From assembly GCF_964204865.1 (NCBI RefSeq), contig NC_135255.1, positions 7,254,001 through 7,318,000 on the forward strand: 64,000 nucleotides of DNA. Direction: 5' to 3'. A program made the position numbers. Numbering within the stretch: the first letter of the stretch is position 1; every line of letters starts with the position of its first letter. Of the stretch, positions 1-45,000 are shown one piece after another. Origin of the DNA: Styela clava (taxonomy: Eukaryota).

Positions 1-3000
1 TTAGTAAAGAAGGTAGGTTTCGATTGGTAATTCAAGGTTAAAAAATATTTTCCAGTTCTATTATCTGGTTGATCTGAAGATGAATATCTATCTATGCTCA
101 GTTATGGGTGTTTTTAACAAAATATCTCCTAAATTGATTGGTGGAGCGCATCCACAATGAAATCATTTCAAATCCGTTGTTCAAAAAATAGAGAAATGGT
201 TAGCATATTCGATCGGAAATGAATTATTTCGTAATATTTGGTTATGATCAAAATATTTGAAACTTTCAATGTTGAATAAGAAAATTTTTATATGGTAGTC
301 CTGTGACATATTGCTGGGATGATATGATATAAATGGTTATTAGGGGCGAAGTGGACTTTTTTGCTGTTGCTGTCGTTGTGGTGAATTAAGATTGCTATCT
401 TTCCAACTATTGAACAAATTTATCTGAAATTAACCCGATTTTTGAAGAAGTTGAACAACTTGAAGCTAACACCAAGTAGGCTTATCGTTAATCCGTTATT
501 CCGATGACCTGTAATCCACGGTTTCGAGAAGTGATCTGTCTCGATTTTTTGAAACTGTACAATCGGACATCAAGAAATTGGAAATTGAAAAGTCTGAACC
601 CGTTTCAGAATCATCTCCTTAGGATGCGCAATCCAGTTTTAAAAGTCCTGATTCGAAGAACGATTACACAATTCACACAACGATGACCACACTCTAAACT
701 AGGTACGGAAAATTAGCGGTCAAAGGTAAAGTACCGTAAAATATTAGATTCTGCAGTTGTGAGTCGAATCGTTTGGTATCTTATTTCACGTTGGCAATAG
801 ACGCTTGGATCATCATTGTCATAGGTCTTACATAGGACCTGGCGAACCTAGGAAAATGCGGTACCATACTTCTACTGGTAAGTTACGATGCTCCTCTGCG
901 TTGTCCAGGCTATGAATTTCGAGAAAAACGTGGGTGAAATATTTCGTTTTAGCCTCTGTGTCCATATATTTTGAGCATTGCTTTCTTGTGAGCTCATTTA
1001 ATGTGTTCGCAACAATTTCCCTGATCAAACTTAATTTAAACTTAATACGTATATTACAATTTCTAGTTTTCAACCTAACCTGTAATATACTTTAACAACT
1101 CAAATTATAATTAGACTTTATATAATTGCATAAAAATTATAAAAAAGTAAATGATCAATTGCATAATAAAAAAATAACACATAAATTACAATACATGAAT
1201 TGTAACATAAATAGATACAGGCATTGCATTATTTAAAAATAAAGTGCTGGAGAATTAAAAGTTTCATAAAAAAATTTATTGCATAGTTGATTGCTTGAAA
1301 TTTAGAGAAAATAAAATTCTAGCAATTTTTTTGACGTTGGAAGATTCCCTATCCGATGTGTCTTTTGCGTTGTAGGAACTGATTGAGTATTTTTTCACCT
1401 TTGTCGGAGAATGAGTCATAATTGATTTCGATCTTGAAAGAGACTAAAAATAAAATAAAAACTTTTAATTGGCGTAAATAATTTTTCACTTGTTAATTAT
1501 TTTTTCACTTTTTAGGAAATTAAATGTATAATAAATAATATTAATATTAGTATATTTTTAATTGAAATTTGACTAAGCTTCGCAGTAGCATCAATAAAAT
1601 ACAATATATATCGTACTTGCTTGCCTGGACAAAAACGCGTTATAAGAATAATATTATATATGCACATATCAATAAAATATAAACAGATGACAAACCTTCG
1701 TTCTTAGTAGTGATTGGATGGAACCACTTCGATTCAAGGACATGTCTTTTTTACCATTCAATTCGTTTTGAAAATCATATTTAAAAAATCTGCAAAAAAA
1801 TAGCAACGTTTATTGTGAGTTATAAACAACTCTTTGTTTCCGATAGCAATGCCGTCACAGCAAAAAGTTCTATAGAAATTTTGCATCTATCTAAAACATA
1901 GACCCTAACAATATAAAATAAGTAGTTTCTTAAAATAAATTGTGACATTTATGTAAAAGTGACCACCTATAAATAAAACTTTCTGTTTTATTTTGGAATA
2001 AGGTTATATATTTACCTATATAATTTTCCCGAATCTTTGAATTCTTCCGACAACCATTTGCCATTAACATCTTCTATAATACGTTGATCCATGAATTTCT
2101 GTAGCAGTTTTTTGGCCTGGGGATTAAATAAAAACATTTAAAACATTTTGAGAATGTTTGAAAACTAAACCTTTAAAAATAATTCGATTCCATTGAAGTG
2201 TAAACTCGCAATTTCTGTTCTAGTCTCCGTACCTGACATCTTGACACGTTCTCATAGTTTTCTATTTCCTTTAAAATAGAATGCATTGTGGTGACAGCTG
2301 ATGAACCGGTGAAACAATCTTCATAAATTTTAAGATTTTTTCGCCTCCGGCCGCAATACATTTGTGATTCAAACGAATTCACAATAACCTTCCATATCCT
2401 TGTTGCTTTAAAAGCTTTGTTTTCTGATTTTGTGTTTCCGATGAGACAATTGTTGTAGTCTAATTCTTCTCCATTTTGATTTTCCATAGTTTTTCAAGTT
2501 ATGCTGCTAATTAAGATTTATTCTTACTTAGCTATGCTAATGATGATAACTGACTTTCTAAACAAGTCATATATATTAATATATTAATTATAATCATCGA
2601 TGAAAGATAAATTTGTTATGATCATAATGGAACTTGATAATCACTTATGATAAAGAGATAAGGCGTTCATTGAACCATCGCCCTTCAATAATATGTTAAT
2701 TGGCATTGGATTTTTAACATCAAATACCTCGCCATAACTTAATCTTTACATTTCTTTAATTAACGTCTTTGCAAGAAAAATTCTATCGGATTATATTTAC
2801 TGGAATACTATAAGCTTTCAAATATTACGCCCCGTATTACACAGTTGAGTAAATGGCGATACCATAGCGTTTATCTACTATTAAAACAAGAAATCTACGA
2901 CCATATAATCCTAAGACTTAAGCGCATTCACATTTGGTTCGAAGAGCAAAACGAAGTATCATCAAATCATTTACAGTACACCTACCACATCGCTGAAATT

Positions 3001-42000: not shown

Positions 42001-45000
42001 ACTATAAAATTCGTTTTGATTTTGAAGTTTTGTATGATAACGTCATCAAAATCAGACATTCCGCACCGCGCGGTGGTCCAGCGATTGCATTATAGTCGGG
42101 AAATTTTCTGATAAGGTAGAATAACGCAGGTTACTGTAAATTATTTCAGACTACCTCCTTTTACTAGACTCTAGAATGAATTTTATCTTTTTCAAATCTG
42201 AAAAATGATAAGTGGCACTTTAATTGTCAATTACTTGAAAATTCAAAAATTTGTCGAGAGCCGCATAAAATGTTCTAGCGTGCCGCATACCAAATACTCT
42301 TAGAAGCTTGGTACCATCTGGCAACGGTGCTCTCATTTAAATTGATGTCTTGTTAGTCCCACGTTTGATATGGATAGGCACATTTCAGCAAATTTTCTCT
42401 CTAGGCATTCTGGATCATCACGAGATTTGGTAGGAATGTCACCTTCAGCTTCCTCGTATGTAAACATTCTTCTTTTCTCCGCTCTTTCTTCCAATCAAAT
42501 TATGCAATAGGCAAGCTTTATATTTTTGTCATATTCATGGCTATGCAGTGCTCCGATGACAATATCAAATTTACTACCAAATATTTTCCAGCGTTCAGCA
42601 ACATTTCCATCAAAAATCAGAGGATCTGGTCTGTTCAATGACAAATCAGTCATCTCCAAATTAATTTCTCACTGACGCAATTTTTTTGAATTCTCCAAGC
42701 AGCTTTAAATCAATCCCGATTCTGACACCATGTTTTTTTTTGTAGGTAAACAAACAACTGTTCATGATTCTTGAGTTAATTATGGATATGTACATAACCA
42801 ACTGTACAGGAGAAATGGAGTTCTTGTAAATTTTTGATGTATTTTTATTGTTGGTGTGTTTAAAAAACTATCCGCCTTTCTTTACCCTCTGACTTGTCAC
42901 AGCAGATTCATCTTCGATCAACACGTTGCTTTTTCCGAGATCATTACTAGTTCGAATATTTTTCCAAGTTTTAACTTAGCGAGCATACTATAGTGAGGTA
43001 TATAATACAATTAGATCAAGACTCTGCATCAAATTGGTATATTGCATTGTGAATACACGTCACAGAAATTACTGTTGACCATGAAAATTTTTTTACTTAA
43101 TTAAAGTGCAATATTTATTGGGAACATATGCAAAATCATTGACGAATGTTGCTGTTTGAAGATTACATAGAACTGACGTCCATTGTATCGATTAATTAGA
43201 TAGATAAGCTCTATACCAACAACAGAAATATAATGCATAATTTAGAATTACTCCTTCAATGAGTGCTGTACTTAATTATTATTATTCCAATTGTACATAT
43301 TGGACTATATCTTCTGATAAATTTTCGTTGAATTTCATTTCGCTGACGTTGTTTTGCTCATTAGTAATATTACCTGCGTATGACATGAGCCGTTTAGTGG
43401 AGCAGGCGATATATAAATGCGCTTGCATTGCACACTCGGGATAGAGATCAAAACATTTTGAGGGAATCACATCTTATTCTTGTTTTTGAAACTGAAACTT
43501 TCACAAACTTGGTAAAACAAAAGTTAAAAGGTTTTTCAACTTACCTCATCGTTCATTTGACCATGGAAACATATACTGAAGATCAAGATTACAAAAACTG
43601 CTCAGTCAAAAACAGAAAATCAGAAAACAAAGCTTTCAAAGCTACAAAAACCTGGAACACATTTGTCCAATCGTTTGAGTCACAAATATGTTGCTGCCGC
43701 AATCGGAAAAATCTTAAGATTTACAAAGAATGCTTCACCGGTTCATCAGCTGTTACCACAATGCATAAAATCCTGAAAAAAATGGAAAACTATGAGAATG
43801 TGTCAAGATCTCAGGTAAGAAGTGTTTTTGTACAACATGTGTTGTAGTCAATTTTAGTGTAAATTGACTTCATCTAAAATGCATGAGGTGTTTGAAATAT
43901 TGCAATTTTAACTAAAGTATTTTTATATTTCATTCCTAAAGAGTATAAAACTGCTACAGAAATTCGTGGACCAACATATTATAGAAGATATCAATGGCAA
44001 ATGGTTATCGGAAGAATTCAAAGATTCGGGAAAATTATATAGGTATAATTAGTCCATATTTTTTTATTCCGAAAGTCATATATTAAAGTATGAATTTTGC
44101 ATTGTGATATATAATTCCCTTCATCTTTGATTAAATTGCTCACGATATACAGTGATACTTCTGTAATCGAAATACTCAACACTCGAACGATTCGGTAGTT
44201 GACCAAAAAATTAGAGTCAAAAATTACCACAGTTTCCACTTTTTTTATGACAAAAAAGTTTCGGTACTCGCACAAATCGTAGTCGAACACCATTCCCGAA
44301 CTAATTATGTTCGACTACAGAGGTATGACCCAGATGCTGATATATATTTTTTAAATATATTGTTGTTTTCTTATAGATTGGCCAAATGCAAATGTTTGAA
44401 TGCCAGCAAGAAATGGATCGAAAATCGATCACAGAATCGAAATAATTCAATTCATGCATTAGTTGGAAGAAAAGGTGTGTAACCTACATGATGTATATAT
44501 ATTTAGTTGTCGCGATTAGTTTTAGTTGAAAATTCAAGGATAGAACAAAATGTTATTTGAGACATTTGGAATATTTGATATTTATAATAGTAACTGACAA
44601 ATCAGAACAGAATATCTCATTCAGCATAAAATAGTACTTTTTGTATGTTGCTGTTATTACGCCGATTAAAATGAGTTCTTTTCGTTTCTAGTTTCCGTCC
44701 AGATAGACGAAACTCAAGCACATTTTCGAAAAACTGCAAAAAGGTTTTCAACCTCTTCCTGTAGCATGATGGAATGGACGAATAAAAAGATTTTAAAAAT
44801 AATACCACGGGGCAAAAAACATTATCTGTGAACTCAAAGCAATCCGACGCAACAATTCTTTTATCATTTCCAGCAGAATGAAAAACTTAATTCATTTTTT
44901 CTTCTGATTTCACTTTCCTGCAAACATACTTTTTTATTATTATTTTTTTTTCATGATTGAATAATATGATTTTCCCATATATTTATTGATTGTTTGAATC

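What the first reader, a model, noticed from the sequence alone, without database searches (positions are those of the whole stretch)
1276..44445. Expanded family of DEP-only mini-genes derived from a DEPDC1-like gene
Seen: at least 13 copies in three subtypes (A x4, B x5, C x4) plus four decayed inverted B copies; about eight look intact. All keep the same intron positions across the DEP domain and stop after a short tail, which in A and B is S/K/R-rich with SP motifs. Established: DEPDC1/LET-99-type proteins continue into a RhoGAP-like domain and are normally low-copy. Inference: a lineage-specific family of truncated DEP microproteins, possibly decoys or dominant negatives in GPCR/G-protein, Wnt or spindle-positioning signalling.
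Basis: partly seen in the sequence, partly recalled or inferred. Interest (0 to 1): 0.72.

Follow-up and report, generated by a model that had tools for sequence, protein, structure and literature searches.

The report
Tandem arrays of short DEP-domain genes
Two neighbouring tandem arrays in an AT-rich eukaryotic genome carry 13 copies, nine of them intact, of a short gene encoding only the DEP domain of a DEPDC1-type cell-division protein plus a short tail, a family that selection once maintained and that is now turning over.

Summary
Searching the window with exon peptides and projecting exon borders gives 4 A copies (- strand), 5 B copies (+), 4 C copies (+), four decayed inverted B fragments and one stray A exon-1 piece.

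- **Intactness:** nine copies are fully intact (A1, A2, A4, B1, B3, B5, C1, C2, C4). A3 is open but has lost one splice acceptor.
- **Identity:** exons 1 and 2 match the two halves of Pfam DEP in order. In the PDB they match only the DEP domain of DEPDC1, 2ysr (profile E 3.6e-10 and 4e-6).
- **No RhoGAP:** 0 of 40 other ORFs tested matched it. A and B stop within one codon of each other.
- **History:** the ancestral unit was a head-to-head A-like/B-like pair. Array 2 is an inverted, degraded derivative amplified at a 97-bp repeat.
- **Selection:** strong on the DEP exons between subtypes (omega about 0.1-0.23). It is weak since the recent amplification (pooled ratio 0.61).

The decoy or dominant-negative role is untested. 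Expression, the full-length parent gene and lineage specificity could not be checked.

The parts
1276..2487 (-). A1, intact 4-exon DEP mini-gene (e1 2233-2487, e2 2016-2116, e3 1696-1789, e4 1276-1443 with stop; 618 nt of coding sequence)
   Evidence: Reading and exon borders; all borders GT-AG. Pfam DEP halves; PDB 2ysr.
4714..5755 (+). B1, intact 4-exon DEP mini-gene (e1 4714-4965, e2 5082-5182, e3 5362-5467, e4 5582-5755), head-to-head with A1
   Evidence: Pfam; PDB 2ysr E 5.1e-8.
8467..9083 (+). B2 pseudogene: exon 1 missing, stop in exon 2, frameshift in exon 4
   Evidence: unit homology starts at 8325.
10735..11934 (-). A2, intact (e1 11680-11934, e2 11466-11566, e3 11157-11250, e4 10735-10902)
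14147..15186 (+). B3, intact (e1 14147-14398, e2 14516-14616, e3 14793-14898, e4 15013-15186)
16837..17961 (-). A3: all four exons open, but the exon-3 acceptor AG is mutated to AA
18294..18332 (-). Stray fragment of A exon 1 (first 13 residues)
   Evidence: E 4.6e-4.
19319..20409 (+). B4 pseudogene: in-frame stop in exon 1, frameshifts; long branch in the tree
21683..22894 (-). A4, intact; a 1-nt deletion near the end of exon 4 changes the last residues, and a stop follows at once
25114..26162 (+). B5, intact (e1 25114-25365, e2 25484-25584, e3 25765-25870, e4 25989-26162)
29000..29288 (.). 97-bp tandem repeat at the start of array 2. The same repeat lies at the unit junctions 33396-33588 and 37680-37871, and is the likely site of unequal exchange.
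   Evidence: unit borders.
29800..30271 (-). Inverted B fragment 1 (pieces of e1, e2, e3; stop in e3), head-to-head with C1
   Evidence: groups with B.
32000..32918 (+). C1, intact A-like copy: DEP exons e1 32000-32257 and e2 32382-32482, then an unrelated predicted 34-residue third exon 32813-32918
   Evidence: Homology to A ends 3 nt after exon 2.
34100..34583 (-). Inverted B fragment 2
36286..37201 (+). C2, intact (e1 36286-36543, e2 36668-36768, e3 37096-37201)
38383..38866 (-). Inverted B fragment 3
40582..40779 (+). C3, cut off inside exon 1 where a deletion joins it to the next unit
41435..41827 (-). Inverted B fragment 4 (e1 and e3 pieces only)
43557..44482 (+). C4: first ATG lost, second ATG at 43563 (homologous to A's start) kept; otherwise intact (e2 43942-44042, e3 44377-44482)

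Best explanation
The region holds two tandem arrays built from one old unit: a divergently transcribed (head-to-head) pair of short protein-coding genes, A-like and B-like. Each gene encodes an N-terminal DEP domain of the DEPDC1/LET-99 type (exons 1-2). This is followed by an 86-92-residue basic, Ser/Thr-rich tail (exons 3-4) with a conserved SP site, and then a stop. There is no RhoGAP-like part.

Shown: the copies, their exon structure, the DEP identity, and the order of events. A and B are anciently diverged. An inverted copy of the pair then gave array 2, in which the B partner died and the A-like partner (C) kept only the two DEP exons. Recent unequal crossing-over then multiplied both units; in array 2 this happened at a 97-bp repeat.

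Also shown: purifying selection on the DEP exons across the old splits, and relaxed constraint with birth-and-death loss (4 of 13 copies plus 4 fragments dead) since the recent amplification.

Inferred: the truncated architecture predates the A/B split, because the tails are homologous and stop within one codon of each other. On that reading the selection acted on DEP-only proteins.

Inferred mechanism: the proteins work as free-standing DEP modules. They would occupy the cortical, membrane or receptor sites that the DEP domain of the host's full-length DEPDC1-like protein uses. They cannot carry out that protein's RhoGAP-like function, so they would modulate or compete with it in cell division. 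The SP-bearing tail is a likely phosphorylation handle.
For: Copies and models; donors GT 27 of 27, acceptors AG 26 of 27.

DEP identity, exon by exon. Exon 1 matches Pfam DEP profile positions 6-33 (E 2.9e-5) and exon 2 matches positions 39-70 (E 2.4e-4). The only significant PDB relative is 2ysr, 'DEP domain-containing protein 1'. Exon 1 covers chain residues 4-60 and exon 2 residues 71-101. Profiles of 10 copies give E 3.6e-10 and 4e-6; the next DEP protein, DEPTOR, is at E about 1.

Architecture: self-comparison. The tree puts (A,C) against (B, inverted B), each clade with 100/100 support. 97-bp repeats sit at the array-2 junctions.

Selection on the DEP exons: A-B pN 0.27-0.29 against pS 0.71-0.74 (p <= 1.5e-9); A-C dN 0.135-0.152, dS 0.59-0.74, omega 0.19-0.23 (p <= 1.8e-6). 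B against its dead inverted copies gives omega 0.25-0.59, with p < 0.05 in 7 of 12 non-independent pairs.

Tails: A and B are 27-32% identical over exons 3 and 4, with an invariant SP and stops one codon apart. For exon 4, pN is 0.49-0.52 against pS 0.78-0.89 (p 0.005 and 7.6e-6).

No RhoGAP match in 0 of 40 other ORFs.

Literature passages: the family is an N-terminal DEP plus a RhoGAP-homology region (10.1101/2022.09.07.506988). The isolated DEP domain of DEPDC1B did not rescue zebrafish morphants (PMC4250264), so a DEP-only protein should not do the full-length job.
Against: There are no expression data of any kind.

Since the recent amplification constraint is weak. The pooled count is 34 synonymous to 82 non-synonymous events, ratio 0.61, p 0.013, and the ratio is about 0.96 in C. 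B pairs differ as much in exons as in introns (0.046-0.054 against 0.039-0.054). Pairwise omega within subtypes is 0.39-1.05 on small counts.

Four of 13 copies and all four inverted fragments are dead.

The old low omega could partly date from full-length ancestors if A and B were truncated independently.

The Nei-Gojobori counts ignore the strong AT bias. A-B synonymous sites are saturated. The codons were chosen or aligned at protein level, which lowers pN.

Each Pfam half-match is below the gathering score (24.3 and 21.4 against 32.7 bits), and the joined test was left out.

C's third exon shows 0 synonymous to 5 non-synonymous changes and may not be coding.

AATAAA overlapping the stop is present only in A1 and A2; none lies within 400 nt downstream in A3, A4 or the B copies.
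Confidence: 0.5

Rival explanations
1. A dead or dying array. The copies are non-functional 5' gene fragments carried along by segmental duplication in a repeat-rich region. Open frames survive only because the last duplications are young.
For: Within-subtype omega is 0.39-1.05 and the pooled ratio is 0.61, or 0.96 in C. B exons and introns are equally diverged. Four of 13 copies plus four fragments are broken. A3 has lost an acceptor. The neighbourhood holds a KDZ-type transposon and minisatellites.
Against: A-B and A-C comparisons show strong constraint on the DEP exons over divergences with dS of 0.6 up to saturation. Splice sites are kept between A and B despite saturated synonymous sites. 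B against its own dead copies still gives omega 0.25-0.59. Exons are less diverged than introns in A1-A2, A2-A4, C1-C4 and C2-C4 (p 0.01 to 7e-5).
Confidence: 0.25
2. These are not short genes. The models are 5' parts of longer transcripts that splice on to RhoGAP-like exons that are unrecognised or lie outside the window.
For: A1 lies 1.3 kb from the left edge and reads towards it. Single short exons of a divergent pseudo-RhoGAP could escape Pfam. A usable donor-like site exists inside A exon 4 (read).
Against: In-frame stops end exon 4 in 7 of 7 open A and B copies, at homologous positions. A and B alternate on opposite strands, so for every copy except A1 and C4 what follows is the next unit (B5 is followed by the 26.2-29.1 kb spacer). 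0 of 40 other ORFs match RhoGAP, including 11 ORFs downstream of C4 (44670-48076, + strand) and 3 downstream of A1. The donor-like site in A exon 4 is not kept in B.
Confidence: 0.1
3. The array is a genetic-conflict locus. Amplified truncated copies of a cell-division regulator act selfishly (as a segregation distorter or its suppressor). Alternatively, the opposed copies feed small RNAs that silence the intact ones.
For: Tandem amplification, fast turnover and truncation of a G-protein-linked division gene recall Sd-RanGAP, a partial tandem duplication encoding a truncated protein (PMC2668186, passages). A and C, and B and the inverted B fragments, lie in opposite orientation and share exact matches of 15-38 nt.
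Against: Nothing here tests drive or small RNAs. There is no excess of non-synonymous change: A exon 3 shows 1 synonymous to 10 non-synonymous events, which I judged not significant by a hand calculation (no call). The inverted copies are only about 72-75% identical to their partners.
Confidence: 0.07

Closest known systems
DEPDC1 / DEPDC1B / LET-99 family
   Same: The DEP domain is N-terminal and is the only solved DEP domain that either DEP exon matches significantly (2ysr). A basic Ser-rich stretch follows the domain.
   Different: The defining second part, the RhoGAP-homology region near the C-terminus (10.1101/2022.09.07.506988, passages), is absent from the models and from all 40 other ORFs tested. 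The proteins are about 205-210 residues, or roughly 150 for C. The genes are multi-copy and arranged as head-to-head pairs in tandem arrays.
DEP domain proteins in general (Pfam PF00610: Dishevelled, EGL-10, Pleckstrin, DEPTOR, Epac)
   Same: Exons 1 and 2 match the two halves of the Pfam profile in order. Atlas neighbours are short eukaryotic proteins, of which 33-41% carry DEP.
   Different: No other DEP family scores above chance in the PDB search (DEPTOR E about 1). There is no second domain of any kind.
Sd-RanGAP of Drosophila melanogaster (a parallel in kind only)
   Same: It is a partial tandem duplication of a G-protein regulator that encodes a truncated protein with a new, interfering activity (PMC2668186, passages).
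   Different: It is a different gene family, a single young copy rather than an old amplified pair, and a known drive phenotype. No phenotype is known here.
Single-domain 'microprotein' inhibitors derived from multi-domain proteins (recalled concept; no call made)
   Same: A paralogue keeps one interaction domain and lacks the effector part.
   Different: No interaction has been shown here, and the proteins are larger than typical microproteins.

Membership tests
DEP domain (Pfam PF00610) | Match to the Pfam DEP profile at or above the gathering score (32.7 bits) | tested here: inconclusive
   Tested exon by exon only. A1 exon 1 scores 24.3 bits (profile 6-33 of 72) and exon 2 scores 21.4 bits (profile 39-70). 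B1 scores 19.7 and 15.1; C1 exon 1 scores 19.7. The halves are collinear and significant by E-value, but each is below the cut-off. The joined model was not searched.
DEP domain (Pfam PF00610) | Significant sequence similarity to a solved DEP domain over its whole length | tested here: met
   2ysr_A chain residues 4-66 are matched by exon 1 (profile E 3.6e-10) and residues 70-101 by exon 2 (E 4e-6 for the profile, 5.9e-4 for a single sequence).
DEP domain (Pfam PF00610) | DEP fold (helices with a beta-hairpin arm, then a small sheet) | tested here: inconclusive
   The exon-1-only model has mean pLDDT 56.7. Its order of helix, hairpin, helix fits the first half of the fold. The fold search gave 0 matches at E <= 0.001. 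The whole domain was not folded because that needs the joined exons.
DEPDC1 / LET-99 family | N-terminal DEP domain closest to that of DEPDC1 | tested here: met
   2ysr is the only significant PDB hit for A, B and the 10-copy profiles. The domain begins about 22 residues from the start.
DEPDC1 / LET-99 family | RhoGAP-homology region near the C-terminus | tested here: not met
   Stops end exon 4 in 7 of 7 open A and B copies. Tail exons have no Pfam family beyond one chance-level hit (E 0.18). 0 of 40 other window ORFs match RhoGAP. Exons outside the window remain unseen.
DEPDC1 / LET-99 family | Orthology or paralogy to the host's own full-length gene | not testable with these tools
Dominant-negative single-domain paralogues (microprotein-type regulators) | Binds the same partner as, or the domain of, the full-length relative and blocks its function | not testable with these tools
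   No partner sequence is available. Indirect evidence only: the isolated DEPDC1B DEP domain did not rescue morphants (PMC4250264, passage).
Tandem gene arrays formed by unequal crossing-over | Head-to-tail units of high identity with a repeat at the junctions | tested here: met
   Array 1 units are 86-96% identical and array 2 units 90.6-97.6%. A 97-bp repeat lies at 29000-29288, 33396-33588 and 37680-37871. The only inverted repeats in array 1 are the A and B exon-1 cores, so there are no transposon termini.

The most novel reading that the evidence does not exclude
An old, selectively maintained pair of divergently transcribed DEP-only genes has become a fast-evolving amplified array. Its products interfere with the host's DEPDC1/LET-99-type control of spindle positioning or cytokinesis in the germline or early embryo. 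That would make it a conflict locus of the Sd-RanGAP kind, a distorter or its suppressor. The opposed decayed copies may add small-RNA control.
Probability: 0.08. Interest if true: 0.8.

Novelty: new variant of a known kind. Interest (0 to 1): 0.42.

Why it matters
DEPDC1-type proteins act in spindle positioning, cytokinesis and mitotic de-adhesion, and what their DEP domain binds is poorly known. A natural family of DEP-only paralogues that selection has kept would be a ready-made tool for finding that partner. It would also be a candidate natural modulator of cell division. The head-to-head pair amplified as a unit, with one partner lost in the second array, is a clean example of birth-and-death evolution of truncated genes. 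If the copies are not expressed, the locus is only a decaying segmental duplication.

Tried and rejected
- **Long-frame Pfam scan.** I then gave stop-free ORFs instead.
- **Half-domain fold.** Folding exon 1 alone from the 10-copy alignment gave a low-confidence model (pLDDT 56.7). Its PDB fold search had no match at E <= 0.001, and the top hits were PadR-type winged-helix proteins at E 0.3. This is uninformative, as expected for half a domain.
- **Atlas searches.** Two searches gave only short unnamed eukaryotic clusters, 33-41% of them with DEP, and nothing on DEPDC1 itself or on taxonomy.
- **Transposon capture** (Helitron or Pack-type) was rejected. The units are strictly tandem, and the only inverted repeats in array 1 are the A/B exon cores.
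- **tRNA-derived elements:** no tRNA found.
- **Poly(A) signals:** AATAAA overlaps the stop only in A1 and A2, so it is not usable as evidence.
- **Literature.** 'DEPDC1' with 'tandem duplicat' gave 5 papers, none relevant by title. A broader three-term search was swamped by plant papers.
- **Scripts.** One search was an empty script. One search printed its results and then failed while saving a file.
- **Not used.** Complex prediction, because no partner sequence was available. The genome-contig collection and the phage, plasmid and E. coli collections, because they hold no eukaryotes.

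
Full report
**Material.** The window has no N and 31-33% G+C over most of its length. I do not take it for human.

**Observation.** Reading the three reference copies in all frames gave explicit models.
- A1 (- strand) has four exons: 2233-2487, 2016-2116, 1696-1789 and 1276-1443. That is 618 coding nt with GT-AG at every border.
- B1 (+ strand) has four exons: 4714-4965, 5082-5182, 5362-5467 and 5582-5755.
- C1 (+ strand) has the two DEP exons, 32000-32257 and 32382-32482, plus a predicted third exon at 32813-32918.

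Searching the window with the 11 exon peptides one by one and projecting the exon borders onto every copy found:
- 4 A copies, 5 B copies and 4 C copies;
- four inverted B fragments, which all share a stop in exon 3;
- a 13-residue A exon-1 scrap at 18294-18332.

Nine copies are intact: A1, A2, A4, B1, B3, B5, C1, C2 and C4.
- A4 has a 1-nt deletion five codons before the end, with a stop right after it.
- C4 has lost the first ATG but keeps the second, which aligns with A's start.
- A3 is open, but its exon-3 acceptor reads CAA instead of CAG.
- B2 lacks exon 1 and has stops. B4 has a stop and frameshifts. C3 is cut off at 40779.

Across the ten open copies, exon 2 is always 101 nt. Donors are GT in 27 of 27 cases and acceptors AG in 26 of 27.

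**What the exons encode.** By instruction every search was made exon by exon.
- **Pfam.** Exon 1 of A1 matches Pfam DEP (PF00610) at profile positions 6-33 of 72 (E 2.9e-5, 24.3 bits). Exon 2 matches positions 39-70 (E 2.4e-4, 21.4 bits). B1 and C1 behave alike. Each half is below the 32.7-bit gathering score, but the halves are collinear.
- **PDB.** The only significant match for either exon is 2ysr, the DEP domain of 'DEP domain-containing protein 1'. Exon 1 covers chain residues 4-60 (E 1.1e-6; B1 gives 5.1e-8) and exon 2 covers residues 71-101 (E 5.9e-4). Profiles built from the ten open copies raise this to 3.6e-10 and 4e-6. The next DEP protein, DEPTOR, stays at E about 1.
- **Intron positions.** Intron 1 therefore splits the DEP domain in the middle (phase 0), and intron 2 follows its last strand (phase 2).
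- **Tails.** The tail exons match no Pfam family beyond one chance-level hit (E 0.18). A tails are 86 residues with 21-23 S+T and 16-17 K+R. B tails are 92 residues with 26 S+T and 16-19 K+R. Both carry SP motifs, some in the form S-P-x-K/R. That this form is the cyclin-dependent kinase consensus is my recollection, not a tool result.

**Architecture and history.**
- **Two arrays.** Self-comparison shows array 1 at 1 to about 26600, with units 86-96% identical. Array 2 lies at 29095-45018, with a 4.3-kb unit 90.6-97.6% identical.
- **Array 1.** A and B sit head-to-head, with their start codons 1.4-2.2 kb apart. B2 is a partial B-only unit.
- **Array 2.** Each unit holds a dead B fragment on the - strand, head-to-head with a C copy on the + strand.
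- **Relationships.** C is A-like: 75% DNA identity over exon 1, intron 1 and exon 2. This homology ends 3 nt after exon 2. A tree of the contiguous genomic stretch from exon 1 to exon 2 puts (A,C) against (B, inverted B), each clade with 100/100 support.
- **Inferred sequence of events.** The ancestral unit was an A-like/B-like divergent pair, and array 2 is an inverted copy of it. In array 2 the B partner died before amplification, since all four fragments share the same stop. The A-like partner lost exons 3-4 and gained an unrelated tail.
- **Mechanism of amplification.** A 97-bp tandem repeat lies at the array-2 junctions (29000-29288, 33396-33588, 37680-37871). The array ends about one such repeat into a fifth unit. 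This points to unequal crossing-over. In array 1 the only inverted repeats are the A and B exon-1 cores, so I see no transposon termini.

**Selection** (Nei-Gojobori counts summed over exons, using only whole codons within an exon).

Between subtypes the DEP exons are clearly constrained:
- A-B: pN 0.27-0.29 against pS 0.71-0.74, p <= 1.5e-9. Synonymous sites are saturated.
- A-C: dN 0.135-0.152, dS 0.59-0.74, omega 0.19-0.23, p <= 1.8e-6.
- B-C: pN 0.29-0.31 against pS 0.78-0.83.

Intact B copies compared with their dead inverted relatives still give omega 0.25-0.59, with p < 0.05 in 7 of 12 non-independent pairs. The dead copies are further from A at non-synonymous sites than the live ones are (0.39-0.41 against 0.29-0.33).

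The A and B tails are homologous, 27-32% identical, with an invariant SP and a K-Y-S-x-S-S block. Their stops lie one codon apart. For exon 4, pN is 0.49-0.52 against pS 0.78-0.89 (p 0.005 and 7.6e-6). Exon 3 shows no significant difference.

Results that weigh against current function:
- Within subtypes, pairwise omega is 0.39-1.05 on small counts.
- Pooled events are 34 synonymous to 82 non-synonymous, ratio 0.61, p 0.013. The ratio is 0.60 in A, 0.55 in B and 0.96 in C.
- C's third exon has 0 synonymous to 5 non-synonymous changes.
- Exons are less diverged than introns in A1-A2, A2-A4, C1-C4 and C2-C4 (p 0.01 to 7e-5), but not in any B pair, nor in A1-A3, A1-A4, A2-A3, A3-A4 or C1-C2.

Caveats:
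- The method ignores the AT bias and the transition/transversion ratio.
- Gene conversion is likely. The unit pair holding A1/B1 and A4/B5 is 96% identical overall, yet B1-B5 differ by 5.4% and A1-A4 by 1.5%.
- The codons were picked or aligned at protein level, which lowers pN.

**Is anything missing downstream?** Exon 4 ends in a stop in 7 of 7 open A and B copies. I tested 40 further stop-free ORFs with Pfam, and none matched RhoGAP:
- 10 in and beside the transposon region;
- 10 inside the units;
- 10 on the + strand after C4;
- 10 after A1, after B5 and beyond.

The only family above its cut-off was CxC4, a cysteine cluster of KDZ transposases (E 2.7e-9). Short divergent exons could escape this test, and sequence left of A1 is outside the window.

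**How it most likely works.**
- **Shown:** short genes with a DEPDC1-type DEP domain and no second domain, kept under purifying selection across old splits, recently amplified and partly decaying.
- **Inferred:** the truncated form predates the A/B split, so selection acted on DEP-only proteins.
- **From the literature (passages read only):** the DEPDC1 family is defined by an N-terminal DEP domain plus a RhoGAP-homology region that lacks the catalytic residue (10.1101/2022.09.07.506988). [quoted passage not shown] The figure behind that statement is supplementary and I did not see it.
- **Proposal:** a DEP-only protein should not replace the full-length protein. It could occupy the same docking sites and so modulate or compete with it during cell division, with the SP-bearing basic tail as a regulatory handle. 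I give the combined picture 0.5. Within it the structural and evolutionary part is much firmer than the mode of action.

**Rivals.**
- A dying array of gene fragments (0.25).
- 5' parts of longer genes (0.10).
- A conflict or small-RNA locus (0.07). For this reading the parallel is Sd-RanGAP, a partial tandem duplication encoding a truncated protein (PMC2668186, passages). The opposed copies share exact matches of 15-38 nt.

**Novelty.** Two literature searches aimed at expansions of this family found nothing relevant. The first, 'DEPDC1' with 'tandem duplicat', gave 5 papers, none relevant by title. The second was a broader search swamped by unrelated papers. That is not proof of absence. I rate the locus a new variant of a known kind: a truncated, amplified offshoot of the DEPDC1 family.

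**What stayed unchecked:**
- expression;
- the host's full-length gene;
- presence in sister species;
- the organism's identity;
- the joined-exon Pfam score and whole-domain fold;
- all large protein and contig collections, which were closed or hold only prokaryotes, phages and plasmids.

Noticed in passing
window 53293-58026 (+): A run of long ORFs (250, 122, 302, 670 and 319 aa) that looks like a KDZ-type DNA transposon. The 302-aa ORF carries the CxC4 cysteine cluster of KDZ transposases (PF18717, E 2.7e-9, above cut-off). The last ORF has a weak SprT-like hit (E 0.001, below cut-off).
   Followed up: partly
window 48453-50874: About three tandem units of roughly 0.8 kb (89-90% identical). 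Each holds a 33-bp minisatellite (48878-49178, 49716-49983, 50606-50772; 5-9 copies) that is open in several frames on both strands.
   Followed up: partly
window 3203-3430, 6109-6321, 6563-6784, 8040-8309, 12613-12834, 19011-19241, 23616-23843 (+): A short repeated element in the A-B intergenic regions of array 1. It gives similar 70-89-aa open frames at seven places. Two of them had no Pfam match. It is probably a small mobile or satellite-like element.
   Followed up: partly
window 31865, 36151, 40447 (+): C1-C3 have an in-frame ATG 45 codons upstream of the start used here, with no stop between. C4 lacks it. The true start of C is therefore uncertain.
   Followed up: no
window 39189-39530 (-), with decayed counterparts in the other array-2 units: A 113-aa open frame between the inverted B fragment and the C copy, with no Pfam match at E <= 0.01. 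An overlapping + strand frame recurs in each unit.
   Followed up: partly
window 26600-29095: The spacer between the two arrays has higher G+C (0.36 at 26-28 kb) and overlapping open frames on both strands at 27.1-28.4 kb. None of the 9 ORFs tested in the spacer had a Pfam match. It is possibly a decayed mobile element.
   Followed up: partly
window 828-1091 (-) and 10246-10551 (-): A conserved 87-101-aa open frame lies downstream of A1 and A2 on the same strand. It has no Pfam family (one chance-level hit at E 0.093). It lies after the in-frame stop of exon 4, so it is not part of the model.
   Followed up: partly
window 47782-47998 and 59496-59681: Two further tandem repeats: a 108-bp unit with 2 copies and a 44-bp unit with 4.3 copies.
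   Followed up: no
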